Assembly (NCBI GenBank): GCA_951406725.2
Contig: OX597842.1
Span: forward strand, 8,928,001 to 8,992,000
Direction of reading: 5' to 3'
Origin: Octopus vulgaris
Taxonomy: Eukaryota
Length of the DNA: 64,000 nt
Part shown: positions 44,524-50,361 of the stretch, in pieces
Layout of the letters: the number at the start of each line of letters is the position of its first letter
Numbering within the stretch: position 1 is the first letter of the stretch
Position numbers: made by a program

Positions 44524-47500
44524 GTGTGTGTGTGTGTGTACCCTTATCTTGACATTATGTGATCTTAGATAGGCATCATCATCATACAAACGACCTTATT
44601 TATTTTGAGTCTTTCACGAAAGACATGTCTGTCCATGGGGAAATATTACCTTGCGTGGAAACAGGGAAGGGTTGGTGACAGGAAGGGCATCCGATCGCAG
44701 AAAATCTGCTTCAGCAATTTCCGTCTGACCCATGCAAGCATAGAAAAGTAGACGTTAAACAGTGGTATGATGATGATGGTGGTGGTGGTGGTGGTGATGA
44801 CGATGATTGTGATGACAAATGCGGAGTAGACGAAACAGGGACAACTGAAGAAGGGGAATATTCCTTGTGTTGTATGTCTTGTACTCCTTTTTGTCGTTGC
44901 TTGAAAAAAAATTTCGTTTCCATGTTTTCATTTTTATGTTTTCGTTTCTCATTGTGTACAACGCTTTTTTTTGATGTCCTGTACCCATATATGCATGTAT
45001 ATATACATATAGATGTAGGTATGTACATATATGTATGTATATATGCATATATTTTTATATTATTTATATCATTAATTTAAAAAGCTTTATTTCCGTTTTG
45101 TCTTTCCTTGCAGTTCATTGGTCAGTTGAACAGCCAATCAAATGTCAAGCCAACAATATATTTATGTATTACTAGCAGTATCGCCCGGCGTTGCTCGGGT
45201 TTGTAAGGGAAATAACTATATAAGCATTTTTAGAGAGTTATAGCCCAAAAATAGTTAAAAAATGCATTAAAAATGGAAAAAAAAATGATGGTAAATTTTT
45301 TAAAAATCCTTGACTCATCGTAGACATTTTTAGAGAGTTACTTCCCTTATATAATAGCGAAAAATGCTTTAAAATTGAAAAAAATGATGGTAATTTTTTT
45401 TTTAAATCGTAGACTCATCGTAGACGCGCGCTAATACCCAGAAGGGCTCGATATGAATCACGGCTATAAGATACCCGCTTTTGGTTAAACTGCACCGCAA
45501 AATGTGGGAGTAGTTAGGAATCTAAATCGTAGGAGACAGAGAGCACACAACCTCACTTTTATATATAAAGATTTATATTATTAATTTAAAAAGCTTTATT
45601 TTCGTTTTTTCTTTCCTTGCAGCTCATTGGTCAGTTGAACAACCAATCAAATGTCAAGCCAACAATGGTGTCATTCTAAAGAGCAAAGATCCACCGTCCA
45701 TCGCAGTCAGTCAGTTAGCTGGTTACCTATCCTCCCTGCATCAGGCACCACATCACCAAAGGTTCGCTGTCGATGGCCTCACAGCAATGATTTTAAGATG
45801 TCACCGATTCGTCTTCGGAGTCTCTGCTTAATTCTTGTGATTTCCTCATTGACCAATCATATAACAGCTTCTACGATGACCCCATCAACACCATCACACA
45901 GCGCCACAACTGCTGCAAGTGTTTCTGCTGCTGCCTCTGCTGTTGTTCATTCTGATTCGTCACCACGAACAATGGCGATGATAACAAGGACCCCGCAGCC
46001 TGACAAAGGGATTATTATGACTCGGCTTACACCAACTGCTGAACTTCCACCTCCTCAACAGACACCAACCAATTCCTTGCAGGGTTCAGGGTTGAGCAAC
46101 TCCGAGATGGACGACATGACATTGTCGAAGCCAACGAAATGTTTGACAAACGTTAGCAGGCAGGAATCAAAGCCAGGCGAGGTTTTCACCGCTGACGATA
46201 GCTTCAGTTCTTCGAGAGAAACAGAGGGAGATCTGGACAAAATGGACTCAAGTGCTATCCAAAGCGACAGCAGTGGTGCTTTGTCAAAAGAAAATACCTC
46301 CAGCTATAAGAGACGAACAGCCAAAAATCGTAGTAAAATGAATGCAAGCGTTTTCAAAGCAGACGAGAGTGACATAACACCTCAAACACATAGATCTAGT
46401 TACAAGAGACGAACAGACAGAAACCCCAATAAAAATGACACGGGTGTGCTCCGAGACCATACTGATAATATATCACATACAAATAGCTCCATTTCCGATG
46501 GACAAATAAACATACACCTTGATAAAAACAGCACAGATGCTTCCCAAAGTGGCCATACAAACATTACACCACAGGCAAATGATTCTGACTACACGAGACG
46601 AACAGACAGACATTTCAATAAAAATGACACAGATGCTTTCCAAAGAGACTATTCTGACAATATTCCAAGTGCAAATGGCTCCATTTCCAAGAGAAAGACA
46701 GACAGACATCTCAATGGAAACGATACAGATGTCTTCCAAAGAAGTCATACTGGCGCTATACCACATGCAAATGGCTCTGCTAATGAGAGACAAACAGACA
46801 GATATTTCACTAAAAACGACACACGTGTTTTCCAGAGAAACCAAACTGACATTACCCCACAAACAAATGTCTCTAATTACGAGACAGATACAGACAGACA
46901 CTTCCATAAAAATGACGCGGATATCTTCCAAAGCGAAAATACTAGTGTTATACCGCTTACAAACAGTTATGATTATGGGAGACAAGCAGATAGACATTTC
47001 AATAAAAACGACACAGACATTTTCCAAACAGACGAAACTGATATTGCCCCACATACAAATGGCTCTGGTTACGAGACACAAACTGATAGACAAATGAATA
47101 AAAGCAACACAGATAACTTCAAAAGAGAAAATGCGAATGTTATATTGCATAGTAACAGTTCTGACGATGAGGGTCAAACAGACAGACATTTCAATAAAAA
47201 TTACTCAGATATTTTCCAAAGAGACAAAACTAACGTTGTACCTCAACCAAAGAACTTCGGTTATAAGTGGAAAGCAAACCAAAGCCTTGATATAAAGGAT
47301 GTTAAAGTTTTTCTGGCAGATGACAGTAATGTAACTCCGAGAGCAAATTCTTCAGGTTACAAGAGAGGGCATGACAAGAGATCCGGCAAAATAAATGCTG
47401 TTATTTCCGATACGAATACCTCCAAAAGTCTATCAGTGGCGAATTTCACTAGTTACAGGAGATGGATAACCAACAAAATTCTTGGTAAAGAAAATTCTGC

Positions 47501-50361
47501 TTTTTTTCCGAAGGCCATATCTAATAATAGAAACGCAACATATGACTCCAGTGATGGTGGAAGGTTTAGCAAAGAAGATCCCTTCGGAAGTTTGCCCTCA
47601 ACTACGGTTAGAGGTGGTGTACACCCGACAAGTCCCCTCGTAAAATTACCTTCAGCAACAGAGAGAAAACGCTTATGTCAGAATAACTCCTGTAAGGATT
47701 TACCCTCCGCAATACAGAGAGAAGGCGTATACCAGACGAGTCCCCTTAAAGATTTACCCTTAACAACAGACAGAAGTGTACATCAACTAAATCTCCTTAA
47801 AGAGTTATCTTCAACAACAGAGAGAGGAGGCTCACATCCGACGAAATCTTACGAAGGTTTGTCCTCGGCAGTAAAAAGTGGTGATATGCATCAGTCAAAC
47901 TCTCTTGAAGGTTTGCCAACAACAGCAGAAGGAAGAAGAGAACATCAGACAAACGTTCTTCATGGTTTACCCATTACAGAGAGAGGAATTCAGCCATTAA
48001 TGAAGAACGAGAGATCTTATTCACATGGTAAACTTTCGAAAGATGACACTTTTCGTGATAGCACATATGCGTATGATGCGCAGCAGTTTCTATCATTTAG
48101 ACATATTAATAGAACTTCCATTGGCGACCCTCCAGACGACATTGGTGAACGAAAAAGAGAAGGGGGAGGAATGGAAGGAGAGCAAGAAGAAGGAGAAGAA
48201 GATGAAGAAGAAGAGTCAGGAGAAGGAGAATTTGGGCAAAAGAATTTTACATATGATGATAGCTACCCTTCGATGATCGAACTGGAGTCAGACATAATTC
48301 AAAGCGATACAGGGGCTTGGACGACAAGGGACAAATTGGAAGCTCCAAATGTGATCCGTCTGGGTTATCTGACTGGCTCCCAGACCAGAACAATGAGAAG
48401 AGAGAACAGCAAAATATACAGGCGTAGCAGTAGCAGTGGTAGTAGTACTAGTAGTAGTAAAAGTAAAAGAAGTGGAGACGAATATTATCGAAGGCCAGGC
48501 CAGGCAATTTCTGGAGCTCTGAGCCTAGCGGTGGCCGAGATCAATAGCGACCCATCAATACTTCCCGAACACCGATTGGAATTCATACCACAGGAGACTT
48601 ACGGTGAGGAATCGGAAAGCATTCGTAAAACAACGCTGCTGCTCGATGCCAACATTTCGGCCTACATTGGTCCCCAAGAGACATGCCTATATGAGGCCAG
48701 AATTGCCGCTGTCTTCAATGTACCAATGTTATCTTATGTGAGTATCTGGTTTACTACACCTTTTTCTATTTTTGCACAAACCTTTTGCGTCTCCGTTGTT
48801 TCTAGCATATTGTTGTTGTTACTGCTGCGACTGCTGTTGTTGCTTTTGTTGTTGTTTAGCCCTAGGTCAACCGTAGTGGGGCTATGACCTTCTATTCAGA
48901 CATAGTGTATCTAGAACTACATTGTCTGGTGTTCAGTATGGTAGTTAGTATTAAGGGCTATAGTTGTTCTTCAGCCGCCCCACCCTGACACCAAATCAGT
49001 CCTAATCATTATATCTATGATCAAAATTGTTCCAGTAGTGACCATCCCATCTATTACTCAGACAGTGTATTTAGGACTATATTATCTAATGTATAGTAGT
49101 TATTATTAGTAGCTGCAGTTGTTATTTAGCCCTAGGTCAATCCTGATCTAGGAAACAGACCTATGACCAAAAATGTTCCAGATGTGACCATCCCATCTAT
49201 TATTAAGATATAGTGTATCTAGGACTACATAATCTAACGTATAGTATGGGATGACCTGATATATAAAAGAAAAATAAGAAAATAGAGATAAATCAATTAA
49301 TAATTATATTCATTAATTACAAAAATAGACATAATTCCTGACAGCCGTTTCGATTCAGACTTTAAAAATTAATTAAGATAATTATAATAATTAAAATAAT
49401 TAATTAGTTAGCTGAAGTGCTCCATGCACTTAACACACGAAAATATAAAAATGTAATGGTATATCTTTTTTCTATCTCCAACAAGGTTTAAAATTATAAT
49501 GGTTTAATTATTTTATTTAATTTTTAAAGTCTGAATTGAAACAGCTGTCAGAGATTATGTTTACTTTTGTAATTAATAAATATAATTATTAATTGATTTA
49601 TCTCTATTTTCTTATCTTTTTAAAATAAATATAAACCACGCTTTATTTAATTATCTGTTTTTGAATATTAAAACTAATATTCAAAATAAATAATAGGTAA
49701 GAAACCAGTAAATTAATTTGATATTATTATTCCTTAATGAGGCTTATATAACCTCTAATTGAACTATATATACATACACATACACGTACATATACATACA
49801 TAGATAAATATGTGTATGTGAATATGCATGTACATACGTACATATATGTGTATGTATATATACATAAATGGATAAGTGTACATGTGTATATATAAATATA
49901 TATAAACATGTCTATATGAACGTATGTATTATGCAACAAAATCGGTTATAGAACTAATTACTAATAAATTTAATTTGAGGAATTTACAAAATTGCAGTTA
50001 GATTATTTATTTATGATTAAGCTTGCTCTCAAAAATCTATTTCCTTTTTTTTGAAAAGCATTAGCAGTTATAGAAATTTTCAATTGGTATTTTTTGTGAG
50101 ATATTTGAGAAAATATGTCAATCTGATGAAACTTCATTATATTTAAACAGTGTTTTATTATTCCTGAAAAACTTGTTTATATCAATGGGGTGGAAACAGC
50201 TGTAATTTATGAGATGTGTCATTTGTTTCTATAAAATAATTAAATTTAATTTAATTTATCAGGTAATGATTAAATTATAAAATTATTTAATTGTTCAATT
50301 TATTGTTTTGGTTTCCCTTTCTAATATACATATATATATATACATACATACATACATACAT

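What the first reader, a model, noticed from the sequence alone, without database searches (positions are those of the whole stretch)
45798..48345. Receptor guanylate cyclase with an ~830-aa repeat-built extension before its ligand-binding domain
Seen: after a signal-like peptide come a Ser/Thr/Pro-rich stretch, about 13 x 32-aa repeats dense in N-x-S/T sequons (NDT, NGS, NSS, NIT), about 8 x 18-aa repeats and an acidic run, all in one stop-free ~3.1-kb exon. Established: in NPR/Gyc32E-type receptors the binding domain normally follows the signal peptide directly. Inference: a lineage-specific, heavily glycosylated stalk or shield; diverged repeats that keep frame argue for selection on the protein.
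Basis: partly seen in the sequence, partly recalled or inferred. Interest (0 to 1): 0.75.

Follow-up and report, generated by a model that had tools for sequence, protein, structure and literature searches.

The report
Octopus receptor cyclase with repeat arm
An octopus membrane receptor enzyme (a guanylate cyclase) carries an unusual arm of about 820 residues, built from repeats and probably sugar-coated, in front of its ligand-binding domain; three octopus species share it and relatives in other animals lack it.

Summary
Window 45798-48737 (+) is one stop-free exon of 980 codons in Octopus vulgaris (100% identical to the public model 'guanylate cyclase 32E-like'). It encodes, in order:
- a signal peptide
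- a Ser/Thr/Pro-rich stretch
- 13 in-register 32-aa units (46299-47546)
- 8 units of about 18 aa (47592-48020)
- an acidic run (48159-48230)
- from about aa 850, the start of the ANF-receptor ligand-binding domain

The extension holds 32 N-x-S/T sequons. One 470-aa stretch has 28, against 10 +/- 2.7 in shuffles. Nothing resembling the extension turned up outside Octopus. In 13 of 13 non-octopus relatives, and in solved NPR1, the binding domain starts within about 40 residues.

O. bimaculoides (split about 34 Mya) keeps the extension unit for unit, minus one unit. Sequon residues are kept 52/53, against 56/72 for other N/S/T. An O. sinensis 'isoform X2' model lacks the whole 32-aa array.

Best reading: a real, Octopus-lineage, probably disordered and N-glycan-dense N-terminal appendage. 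It sits at the free end, so it is a brush or shield and not a stalk. Its function is untested. It is a new variant of a known receptor kind, already present in public gene models but apparently undescribed in print. Interest is moderate.

The parts
45599..45622 (+). Acceptor-like site (pyrimidine tract + CAG), followed by an in-frame TGA at 45636-45638. The coding exon is probably preceded by 5'UTR exon(s).
   Evidence: Read directly from the sequence. The open frame starts at 45639.
45651..45797 (+). Optional 49-codon in-frame leader from an upstream ATG with weak context (C at -3). The O. sinensis model starts here. Small out-of-frame uORFs start at 45665, 45773 and 45787.
45798..45872 (+). 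Start codon (A at -3) and signal-like peptide, aa 1-25.
   Evidence: The O. bimaculoides model starts at the same Met.
45873..46298 (+). Ser/Thr/Pro/Ala-rich stretch, aa 26-167, with 2 sequons. 118/142 residues identical to O. bimaculoides.
46299..47546 (+). Array of 13 x 32-aa (96-nt) units, aa 168-583, in perfect register, with 27 N-x-S/T sequons and no Cys. It has a higher-order 192-nt period.
47547..47591 (+). Linker, aa 584-598. The O. sinensis X2 model rejoins at nt 47580.
47592..48020 (+). Eight units of about 18 aa (LPSTTERGG...-type), aa 599-741.
   Evidence: 123/147 residues identical to O. bimaculoides.
48021..48158 (+). Non-repeated hydrophilic segment, aa 742-787. It is the best-conserved part of the extension (aa 746-790: 40/45 identical to O. 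bimaculoides).
48159..48230 (+). Acidic Glu/Asp/Gly run, aa 788-811.
   Evidence: Net charge is -18 over aa 791-849.
48231..48344 (+). Last segment before the binding domain, aa 812-849. From about aa 830 it is alignable with two unnamed relatives (P0002, P0003).
48345..48737 (+). Start of the ANF-receptor ligand-binding domain, aa 850-980 (LGYLTGS at aa 855). It includes an octopus-specific Ser-rich insert (aa 875-896, from nt 48420).
48738..48743 (+). Splice donor GTGAGT, phase 0.
   Evidence: The orthologous proteins continue in exon 2.
50419..50604 (+). Exon 2 core (binding domain).
   Evidence: tblastn of P0153/P0154 gives 98% identity. Pfam ANF_receptor E 1.4e-11.
51315..51428 (+). Exon 3 core (binding domain).
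   Evidence: 100% identity.
52282..52449 (+). Exon 4 core (binding domain).
53824..54012 (+). Exon 5 core (binding domain).
54791..54928 (+). Exon 6 core (binding domain).
   Evidence: The Pfam ANF_receptor match is weak (E 9.4e-4, below the cut-off).
56983..57141 (+). Exon 7 core (end of the binding domain).
57994..58122 (+). Exon 8 core (membrane-proximal ectodomain).
59368..59446 (+). Transmembrane exon (…IIGGVVGGIAVVIIVFLVVIY…), flanked by an acceptor 'catag' and a donor 'gtgagt'.
   Evidence: It matches P0153/P0154 in alignment A1.
61675..61791 (+). Juxtamembrane exon core. The kinase-homology and cyclase exons lie beyond the window.

Best explanation
Exon 1 of an Octopus vulgaris Gyc32E-like receptor guanylate cyclase encodes a real, translated N-terminal appendage of about 824 residues (aa 26-849). 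The appendage lies between the signal peptide and the ANF-receptor-type ligand-binding domain.

How it probably arose (inferred):
- Short hydrophilic motifs expanded in frame. A 32-aa unit grew partly as 64-aa double units, and there is a separate unit of about 18 aa.
- This happened before O. vulgaris and O. bimaculoides split about 34 Mya.
- Since then the units have evolved independently, with occasional gain or loss of whole units.

What it probably is (inferred):
- It is Cys-poor, strongly hydrophilic and most likely disordered.
- It carries about 32 N-glycan acceptor sites, plus Ser/Thr/Pro-rich stretches that could be O-glycosylated.

How it probably works (inferred):
- It hangs from the membrane-distal, free end of the ectodomain, so it cannot be a stalk.
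- The most likely role is a bulky, glycan-bearing brush or shield. Such a shield could limit or tune access of ligand, proteases or neighbouring molecules to the binding domain, and perhaps affect receptor pairing.
- The acidic run sits next to the binding domain.

Shown here: the anatomy, the reading frame, the restriction to Octopus among everything searched, the cross-species conservation and the preferential retention of sequons.
Inferred only: translation of the whole exon, glycosylation, disorder and the shielding role.
For: Coding and part of the receptor:
- The open frame has 1082 codons, against a shuffle maximum of 243.
- The only signal-like peptide is at aa 1-25. The highest 19-aa hydropathy window in aa 26-849 is 0.79.
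- No donor-like GT site (5 or more of 6 consensus positions) was found in exon 1.
- Public gene models of three species include the extension in the same protein as the receptor: P0152 at 100% identity, and P0153 and P0154.

Receptor identity:
- ANF_receptor matches in exons 1 and 2.
- P0154 has ANF_receptor 549-901, kinase homology 1084-1327 and Guanylate_cyc 1393-1578.
- P0154 residues 547-1581 align with NPR1 chain residues 23-1023 at E 2.4e-203.

Unusual position:
- The domain start maps to residues 1-39 in 13 of 13 non-octopus relatives of 500 aa or more.
- In the octopus models it maps to 824-829, or 495 in X2.

No relatives of the extension:
- The best 150 of 372 hits among 1.84 billion representatives all have their best stretch within aa 830-980.
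- The word-index searches found only Octopus orthologues: 1 of 7999 and 2 of 8000 candidates.
- The unit HMM hits 13 units in O. vulgaris, 12 in O. bimaculoides, a partial one in O. sinensis X2, and none significantly (best E 2.7) in the other 159 stored proteins.

Age and constraint:
- Units are orthologous one to one (0.69-0.94 identity), against a paralogous mean of 0.30.
- The species split about 34 Mya (PMC10700109, passages read).
- dN/dS among core units is 0.47, against 0.69 and 0.83 when the same DNA is read in the other two frames.

Sequons:
- 28 observed, against 10.1 +/- 2.7 expected.
- In the array, sequon Asn is kept 26/26 against 15/20 for other Asn (p 0.011).
- S/T at +2 is kept 26/27 against 41/52 (p 0.05).
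- Pooled, 52/53 against 56/72 (p 0.001).

Composition of aa 26-849: GRAVY -1.13, 77% disorder-promoting residues, 3 Cys.
Against: - No transcript or protein data were available, so inclusion of the whole exon in mature mRNA rests on computed gene models.
- The O. sinensis 'isoform X2' model lacks aa 190-594, that is the whole 32-aa array. The array may therefore be dispensable, optional or polymorphic.
- Constraint is relaxed. The extension differs from O. bimaculoides at 128/789 sites, against 5/131 in the binding-domain start (odds ratio 4.9, p 4e-5). It differs from O. sinensis at 17/419, against 0/129.
- dN/dS among units is about 0.5, not low.
- GC3 of the extension (0.32-0.44) is nearer to the flanking non-coding DNA than to exons 2-10 (0.59).
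- Over the whole extension the sequon effect is weaker: pooled 59/62 against 145/172, p 0.03, and S/T alone p 0.38.
- The public O. vulgaris model starts at Met27 and so has no signal peptide.
- Nothing tested here bears on the shield function itself.
Confidence: 0.6

Rival explanations
1. Tolerated low-complexity growth. The extension is translated but has no specific role. It would be a by-product of in-frame minisatellite expansion in a permissive, disordered N-terminus, kept open only because frameshifts would destroy the receptor downstream.
For: - Any stop or frameshift in exon 1 would truncate the receptor, so an open frame need not mean selection on the repeats themselves (inference).
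- Constraint is relaxed: dN/dS 0.47-0.53, and 128/789 differences against 5/131 in the binding-domain start.
- One whole unit was gained or lost between species.
- The array is absent from O. sinensis X2.
- GC3 is low.
- Relatives carry short low-complexity spacers, such as poly-Asn, between the signal peptide and the domain.
Against: - Sequon residues are kept preferentially: 52/53 against 56/72 in the array, p 0.001.
- Sequons are about 2.8 times more frequent than the composition predicts.
- Units stayed orthologous and in order for about 34 My.
- dN/dS is lower in the real frame than in the two control frames.
Confidence: 0.22
2. Optional module. The 32-aa array is included or left out (by unusual excision from the transcript, or as a presence/absence allele). 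That would give long and short receptor forms, as in the variable mucin-like segment of CD45.
For: - A public model named 'isoform X2' in O. sinensis lacks exactly aa 190-594, in frame, and keeps everything else.
- O. sinensis and O. vulgaris split only about 2.5 Mya (PMC10700109, passages).
- CD45 isoforms differ by 41 to 202 mucin-like N-terminal residues through alternative splicing (PMC11969063, passages).
Against: - In the O. vulgaris DNA the corresponding boundaries (…AAAGCAGAC|GAG… and …AAAGAAGAT|CCC…) have no GT-AG in any register.
- No donor-like site exists in the exon.
- The 8-of-9 match before both boundaries fits a microhomology deletion, or a template-switch artefact, as well as it fits regulated excision (inference).
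Confidence: 0.12
3. Pro-region. The extension is cut off at dibasic sites by proprotein convertases during secretion, which would unmask the binding domain or release glycopeptides.
For: - There are 11 dibasic motifs in aa 1-850.
- These include ERKRE just before the acidic run and GRRE in the 18-aa repeats. Both are invariant in all four aligned sequences.
Against: - None of the sites has Arg at P4, as in the furin consensus. The consensus is recalled, not tested here.
- Dibasic motifs in the array units are not kept from unit to unit.
- No experimental evidence exists.
Confidence: 0.05
4. Annotation artefact. The repeat ORF is not translated with the receptor. It would be 5'UTR, a retained intron or a separate gene, and the real receptor would start near 48300.
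For: - The public O. vulgaris model is poor. It starts at Met27 and skips six exons that are intact in the window.
- All support comes from computed models.
Against: - There is no stop between the repeats and the binding domain across 980 codons.
- There is no signal-like hydrophobic segment anywhere in aa 26-849, so a receptor starting near 48300 would lack a signal peptide.
- Only weak acceptor-like sites lie inside the exon.
- The frame is kept in a species that split about 34 Mya.
Confidence: 0.04

Closest known systems
Receptor (membrane) guanylate cyclases of the natriuretic-peptide-receptor / Gyc32E type
   Same: - It has the same core layout: signal peptide, ANF-receptor-type binding domain, one transmembrane helix, kinase-homology domain, linker and cyclase domain.
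- The orthologue aligns end to end with solved NPR1.
- The nearest named relatives are called 'guanylate cyclase 32E'.
   Different: - About 824 extra residues lie between the signal peptide and the binding domain. In 13 of 13 non-octopus relatives, and in NPR1, the domain starts within about 40 residues.
- There is an octopus-specific Ser-rich insert inside the domain.
- The ligand is unknown. The Gyc32E clade is described as an orphan, protostome-only clade (PMC12611267, passages).
CD45 (PTPRC), a receptor-type enzyme with a variable N-terminal mucin-like segment
   Same: - It is a single-pass receptor enzyme whose free N-terminal end is a glycan-rich, non-globular segment of variable length placed before the folded ectodomain.
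- Length variants exist: CD45R0 has 41 such residues and CD45RABC has 202 (PMC11969063, passages). Here one model lacks 405 residues.
   Different: - CD45 is an unrelated protein (a phosphatase, not a cyclase).
- The CD45 segment is O-glycosylated, whereas the array here is rich in N-glycan sequons.
- The octopus extension is about four times longer than the longest CD45 segment.
- Regulated splicing is not shown here, and the boundaries are non-canonical.
- This is a functional analogy only.
Guanylyl cyclase C, an N-glycosylated receptor cyclase
   Same: N-glycans on the ectodomain of a receptor cyclase matter for folding, ligand binding and signal transfer (PMC12493192, passages).
   Different: Human GC-C has ten putative sites, all inside the folded binding domain. 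Here there are 32 sequons in a separate, repeat-built extension.
Mucin-type tandem-repeat (Pro/Thr/Ser) domains
   Same: It is built of tandem repeats, is hydrophilic and Cys-poor, is probably extended, and has Ser/Thr/Pro-rich stretches in aa 26-167 and in the 18-aa units.
   Different: - The main array has only 3% Pro and is rich in Asn, Asp, Lys and Arg, with N-x-S/T sites.
- There is no Pfam mucin match.
- O-glycosylation could not be tested.

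Membership tests
Receptor guanylate cyclase (ANF-receptor type) | N-terminal signal peptide | tested here: met
   aa 1-25 has two Arg, then a 12-residue hydrophobic core (mean Kyte-Doolittle 2.09), then small residues. This is a heuristic only, since no dedicated predictor was available.
Receptor guanylate cyclase (ANF-receptor type) | Extracellular ANF_receptor (periplasmic-binding-protein-like) ligand-binding domain | tested here: met
   - Pfam PF01094 matches exon 1 (E 2.7e-9, 37 bits, cut-off 25.4) and exon 2 (E 1.4e-11).
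- The full domain is matched at 549-901 in orthologue P0154 (E 6e-46).
Receptor guanylate cyclase (ANF-receptor type) | Single transmembrane helix after the ectodomain | tested here: met
   The exon at 59368-59446 encodes a hydrophobic stretch of about 21 residues and is flanked by splice sites. It is collinear with P0153 and P0154.
Receptor guanylate cyclase (ANF-receptor type) | Intracellular kinase-homology domain | tested here: met
   This lies outside the window. It was seen only in the orthologous public models: PK_Tyr_Ser-Thr at 1084-1327 in P0154 and at 1149-1210 (partial) in the O. vulgaris model P0152.
Receptor guanylate cyclase (ANF-receptor type) | C-terminal class III cyclase catalytic domain | tested here: met
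   This lies outside the window. Guanylate_cyc matches 1393-1578 in P0154 (E 1.3e-65) and partially in P0153. It is absent from the truncated O. vulgaris model P0152.
Receptor guanylate cyclase (ANF-receptor type) | Ligand-stimulated cGMP synthesis | not testable with these tools
   This needs expression and a cGMP assay. The ligand is unknown.
Gyc32E clade (protostome-only orphan clade of PMC12611267) | Placement inside the Gyc32E clade, rather than the Gyc76C clade, in a tree with labelled Drosophila sequences | not tested
   Only automated names support it: 'guanylate cyclase 32E-like' for the octopus models and 'guanylate cyclase 32E' for aphid and termite hits. No tool returned labelled Drosophila Gyc32E or Gyc76C, so no tree was built.
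Mucin-type (Pro/Thr/Ser) tandem-repeat domain | Repeats dominated by Pro, Thr and Ser | tested here: not met
   - The main array has P 3%, S 10%, T 10%, N 12% and D 11%.
- Only aa 26-170 (S 19%, T 13%, P 8%) and the 18-aa units approach such a composition.
Mucin-type (Pro/Thr/Ser) tandem-repeat domain | Dense O-glycosylation | not testable with these tools
   This needs glycoproteomics or a glycosidase shift assay.
CD45-like variable N-terminal glyco-segment (functional analogy, not homology) | Regulated inclusion or exclusion of the segment by alternative splicing | tested here: inconclusive
   One O. sinensis model lacks aa 190-594. The matching boundaries in the window have no GT-AG, and no donor-like site exists in the exon. 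No RNA data were available.

The most novel reading that the evidence does not exclude
The octopus receptor would be the first guanylate cyclase receptor whose signalling is tuned by a giant glycan-bearing N-terminal module of adjustable length. Long forms (with the array) and short forms (array-less, like O. sinensis 'X2') would be made in different tissues or states. They would differ in ligand access, in pairing, or in exclusion from tight cell contacts, as CD45 isoforms do. This would be an independent invention, in cephalopods, of size and glycan control of a receptor enzyme.
Probability: 0.12. Interest if true: 0.7.

Novelty: new variant of a known kind. Interest (0 to 1): 0.45.

Why it matters
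Receptor guanylate cyclases have a very stable layout across animals. A free N-terminal arm of about 820 residues, rich in sequons and kept for at least about 34 My, is a clear departure from that layout. It sits in a clade (Gyc32E-like) whose ligands are still unknown.

If the arm is glycosylated and affects ligand access or receptor pairing, it would add a new kind of control to this receptor class. It would also be an example of a new protein module born from in-frame minisatellite growth.

Practical point: the public O. vulgaris model of this gene is defective. It has no signal peptide, and six exons are missing, among them the transmembrane one. The window allows it to be corrected.

Tried and rejected
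Structure and family searches that gave nothing useful:
- AlphaFold2 on the exon-1 protein from the upstream ATG (1029 aa, alignment A1 of 4 rows) gave mean pLDDT 28.5 and pTM 0.18, with all 1029 residues below 50. The genuine binding-domain fragment scored just as low, so the run cannot tell disorder from lack of information. I do not use it as evidence.
- ESM Atlas look-alikes for aa 26-830 and aa 584-849 gave no usable hit.
- PDB sequence search with exon 1 gave 0 matches at E up to 1. With the 13-unit profile it gave 3 chance-level matches, E 0.5-0.6.
- Pfam on the extension gave only a sub-threshold CFAP90 match (E 0.057, 14.5 bits against a cut-off of 32.6), taken as chance.

Searches for other copies or relatives of the extension:
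- Other copies in the window: 0 of 15 blastn HSPs and 0 of 1 tblastn HSPs lie outside 45700-48400. It is not a dispersed repeat at this scale.
- P0003 (an unnamed 266-aa ORF fragment, 62% identical to the binding-domain start over the BLASTP alignment; phmmer listed 70%) has about 100 sequon-rich residues upstream. These show no significant similarity to the octopus extension (best E 0.63) and no unit-HMM hit.
The names and sources of the unnamed hits, and the other members of the O. sinensis cluster (including any 'X1'), stayed unknown.

Splicing:
- I looked for a canonical intron matching the O. sinensis X2 gap and found none.

Literature:
- I found no paper describing an N-terminal extension of a receptor guanylate cyclase, or this octopus gene.
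- The searches were: 'guanylate cyclase'+octopus+receptor (48 papers, 15 listed); 'receptor guanylyl cyclase'+'N-terminal extension'+'extracellular domain' (2 papers, unrelated); guanylyl cyclase/cephalopod/tandem repeat; 'membrane guanylyl cyclase'+'mucin-like' (0); LOC106871537/XP_014773523 (0).
- A search for ITP/CHH-type peptides in cephalopods gave nothing decisive in the 10 listed titles of 2,643 papers.
- No supplementary files were opened.

Not done:
- The window's exons were not joined into a spliced protein. Each exon was searched on its own.
No cephalopod genome other than this window could be read.

Full report
WHAT IS THERE

The + strand has an open frame of 1082 codons from stop to stop (45639-48887). 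From the ATG at 45798 to a consensus donor (TAT|GTGAGT, exon end 48737) there are 980 codons without a stop. This is far beyond chance:
- 300 shuffles of the region gave longest open frames of mean 111 and maximum 243 codons.
- The next-longest open frame in the 64-kb window is 307 codons.
- The two non-repeated parts of the extension (167 and 266 codons) stayed open in 0 of 2000 shuffles each.

ANATOMY OF THE EXON-1 PROTEIN
- aa 1-25: signal-like peptide.
- aa 26-167: Ser/Thr/Pro/Ala-rich stretch.
- aa 168-583 (46299-47546): 13 units of exactly 32 aa, in perfect register.
- aa 599-741 (47592-48020): 8 units of about 18 aa.
- aa 742-787: a non-repeated segment.
- aa 788-811 (48159-48230): an acidic run.
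- From about aa 850: the first third of an ANF_receptor domain (Pfam E 2.7e-9).

Supporting detail:
- TRF sees the 96-nt period and a 192-nt higher-order period. The unit identity matrix shows the alternating pattern expected from duplication of double units.
- The extension (aa 26-849) holds 32 N-x-S/T sequons. In aa 171-640 there are 28, against 10.1 +/- 2.7 (maximum 20) in 2000 shuffles. They are concentrated at unit positions 13 and 30.
- The extension is strongly hydrophilic (GRAVY -1.13), has 77% disorder-promoting residues and only 3 Cys.

One caution: within the array two other frames are also open. Stop-freeness there follows from repeating a stop-free unit. The case for coding rests on the non-repeated parts, on continuity with the binding domain and on the comparison between species.

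WHOSE GENE IT IS

Each was searched on its own, and the full-length layout was read from public orthologous models.
- Exon 1 is 100% identical (97% covered) to 'guanylate cyclase 32E-like [Octopus vulgaris]' (P0152, 1372 aa). This was the only hit among 7999 scored candidates of 539-1715 aa.
- Among 8000 longer candidates there were two hits. One is O. bimaculoides XP_014773523.1 (P0153, 1741 aa, 78% identical by BLASTP, 100% covered). The other is O. sinensis 'guanylate cyclase 32E-like isoform X2' (P0154, 1783 aa).
- tblastn of these proteins places exons 2-8 and 10 in the window at 88-100% identity.
- The transmembrane exon lies at 59368-59446.
- The kinase-homology and cyclase exons lie beyond base 64000.
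- P0154 has ANF_receptor 549-901, kinase homology 1084-1327 and Guanylate_cyc 1393-1578.
- P0154 residues 547-1581 align with full-length solved NPR1 (9bcv, chain residues 23-1023, E 2.4e-203).

The receptor guanylate cyclase assignment is therefore sound. The subfamily label 'Gyc32E' rests only on automated names, and no tree was built.

According to passages of PMC12611267:
- Gyc32E and Gyc76C head two protostome-only clades.
- Gyc76C is the receptor of the ion transport peptide.
- Gyc32E is still an orphan.
- ITP/CHH-like genes were retrieved in molluscs.

HOW UNUSUAL THE EXTENSION IS
- A phmmer scan of 1.84 billion cluster representatives gave 372 hits at E up to 0.001. The best 150 all have their best stretch inside aa 830-980, that is the binding-domain start and the 20 residues before it. 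What the other 222 match was not shown.
- A BLASTP of aa 850-980 hit all 16 stored proteins of 500 aa or more. In the 13 non-octopus ones (limpet, annelid, bivalve, aphids, termite, psyllid, fly and unnamed ones) the match starts at residues 1-39. In the octopus models it starts at 824-829, or 495 in X2.
- Some relatives have short low-complexity spacers of 20-60 residues after the signal peptide. A little slack at this position is therefore common, but nothing comes near 820 residues.
- A profile of the 13 units finds 13 units in O. vulgaris, 12 in O. bimaculoides and a partial first unit in O. sinensis X2. It finds nothing significant (best E 2.7) in the other 159 stored proteins.
- Pfam, PDB and the ESM Atlas gave nothing for the extension.
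- No other copy exists in the window.

Two unnamed ORF fragments (P0002, P0003; 70% identical to aa 830-980 by phmmer, 62% over the BLASTP alignment) are the nearest non-Octopus sequences.
- P0003 has at least 100 further residues upstream with 6 sequons and no signal peptide.
- These residues are not alignable with the octopus extension.
- A different extension may therefore exist in another lineage. I could not tell which lineage, and I did not try to trace the record.

EVOLUTION AND CONSTRAINT
- Alignment A1 shows that O. bimaculoides has the whole extension, collinear with O. vulgaris. The differences are one missing 32-aa unit (O. vulgaris units 7 and 8 correspond to one hybrid unit) and three small in-frame indels.
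- Units match their positional counterparts at 0.69-0.94 identity. Paralogous units within O. vulgaris average 0.30, with a maximum of 0.66.
- The array therefore predates the split, dated at about 34 Mya in PMC10700109 (passages). It has not been homogenised since.
- Identity to O. bimaculoides by segment: 118/142 (Ser/Thr/Pro part), 325/384 (array), 123/147 (18-aa units), 41/56 (acidic part), 126/131 (binding-domain start).
- Overall the extension differs at 128/789 sites, against 5/131 in the binding-domain start (odds ratio 4.9, p 4e-5).
- Among the core units dN/dS is 0.47. Reading the same DNA in the other two frames gives 0.69 and 0.83. Second codon positions differ least (0.25, against 0.36 and 0.37).
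- The most telling test is on sequons in the array. Sequon Asn is kept in 26/26 cases against 15/20 for other Asn (p 0.011). S/T at +2 is kept (as S or T) in 26/27 against 41/52 for other S/T (p 0.05). Pooled, this is 52/53 against 56/72 (p 0.001).
- Over the whole extension the effect is weaker (59/62 against 145/172, p 0.03).
- GC3 of the extension (0.32-0.44) is lower than in exons 2-10 (0.59) and nearer to the flanking non-coding DNA. This fits a young or weakly constrained coding segment.

THE O. SINENSIS MODEL
- P0154 starts at the upstream in-frame ATG (45651 in the window) and lacks aa 190-594, that is 46365-47579, 1215 nt. This removes almost exactly the 32-aa array and nothing else.
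- In the window the two boundaries read …AAAGCAGAC|GAGAGT… and …AAAGAAGAT|CCCTTC…. No register gives GT-AG.
- 1215 is not a multiple of 96.
- The 9 bases before each boundary match at 8 positions.
- No donor-like GT (5 or more of 6 consensus positions) occurs anywhere in exon 1, and acceptor-like sites are few and weak.
- The gap could be a recent microhomology deletion in O. sinensis (split about 2.5 Mya), a template-switch artefact taken up by the annotation, or an unusual excision. I cannot decide among these.

MECHANISM

Shown: the anatomy, the continuity with the receptor, the restriction to Octopus among what was searched, and selection that favours the sequons.

Inferred:
- The extension enters the secretory pathway behind the only signal peptide.
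- It is decorated with many N-glycans, and perhaps with O-glycans on the Ser/Thr/Pro parts.
- It stays unfolded.

Because it is N-terminal to the binding domain, it is a free arm on the membrane-distal end and not a stalk.

[quoted passage not shown] This is an upper-end extrapolation.

The most economical role is a steric and glycan brush that modulates access to, or pairing of, the binding domains. N-glycans are known to affect folding, binding and signal transfer in another receptor cyclase, GC-C, which has ten putative sites (PMC12493192, passages).

Rivals are a functionless tolerated expansion, an optional CD45-like module, a convertase-removed pro-region and an annotation artefact. They are weighed in the fields above.

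The AlphaFold2 run was uninformative. All residues scored below pLDDT 50, including the true domain fragment.

NOVELTY AND VERDICT

The receptor kind is known. The extension is already inside public gene models of three species. I found no paper that describes it.

It is a new variant of a known kind. The layout is clearly unusual and has measurable constraint, but no function has been tested. Interest is moderate (0.45).

UNCHECKED
- Transcripts.
- Other cephalopod genomes.
- The O. sinensis genomic sequence and its other isoforms.
- The clade assignment.
- All biochemistry.
- The closed collections (metagenome contigs, viral contigs) were not searched. Genome contigs (bacteria and archaea only) was not used.

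Noticed in passing
window 45798-61791, compared with public model P0152: The public O. vulgaris protein model (1372 aa) starts at Met27, so it has no signal peptide. It skips exons that are intact in the window: 50419-50604, 53824-54012, 54791-54928, 57994-58122, the transmembrane exon 59368-59446 and 61675-61791. It ends before the cyclase domain. The model looks defective rather than the gene.
   Followed up: partly
window 46365-47579: The O. sinensis 'isoform X2' model lacks exactly this 1215-nt stretch (aa 190-594, the 32-aa array), in frame. The boundaries in the window have no GT-AG but share an 8-of-9 match. The cause could be a deletion, an artefact or an unusual excision, and it is unresolved.
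   Followed up: partly
window 48420-48485: A Ser-rich, basic insert lies inside the first part of the binding domain. Its length varies among the three Octopus species. It is absent from P0003 and from non-octopus relatives. Another unnamed relative (P0102) has an insert of about 120 aa at a nearby place.
   Followed up: partly
window 45599-45797: A strong acceptor-like site (pyrimidine tract + CAG, ending at 45622) is followed by an in-frame TGA (45636-45638). An upstream in-frame ATG (45651) has weak context. Three short out-of-frame uORFs start at 45665, 45773 and 45787, and the last one overlaps the main ATG.
   Followed up: partly
window 45873-48344 versus exons 2-10: Third-position G+C is 0.32-0.44 in the extension, 0.43 in the binding-domain part of exon 1 and 0.59 in the later exon cores. 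The flanking non-coding DNA has about 26-30% G+C.
   Followed up: no
window 53228-53640 (+), 57323-57887 (+), 62857-63277 (+), 50867-51093 (-): An interspersed repeat family of about 200-400 nt lies in the introns, with copies 79-89% alike and one partly doubled. There is no Rfam match in the window.
   Followed up: partly
window 51362-52312, 53978-54500, 54902-55344, 58290-58830, 61833-62500: Long simple repeats with periods that are multiples of three lie in five introns. They read as long poly-His/Ser/Thr/Ile/Asp 'ORFs' on both strands and could mislead ORF-based scans. (TA/CA)n tracts lie at 49736-50008, 50306-50424, 59588-60036 and 61321-61558.
   Followed up: no
window 21459-22019 (-) and 26113-26790 (+): Two ORFs look, from recall only, like remnants of mobile elements: a reverse-transcriptase tail of a non-LTR element and a transposase N-terminal part. 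Pfam gave no match at E up to 0.01. None of the 35 upstream ORFs of about 110 aa or more that I picked from the 240 listed had a Pfam match.
   Followed up: partly
proteins P0002 and P0003 (unnamed ORF fragments, not in the window): These are the nearest non-Octopus relatives of the binding-domain start (70% by phmmer, 62% by BLASTP). They carry sequon-rich sequence upstream of the domain (6 sequons in 128 residues in P0003) without a signal peptide. This hints at a different N-terminal extension in another lineage.
   Followed up: partly
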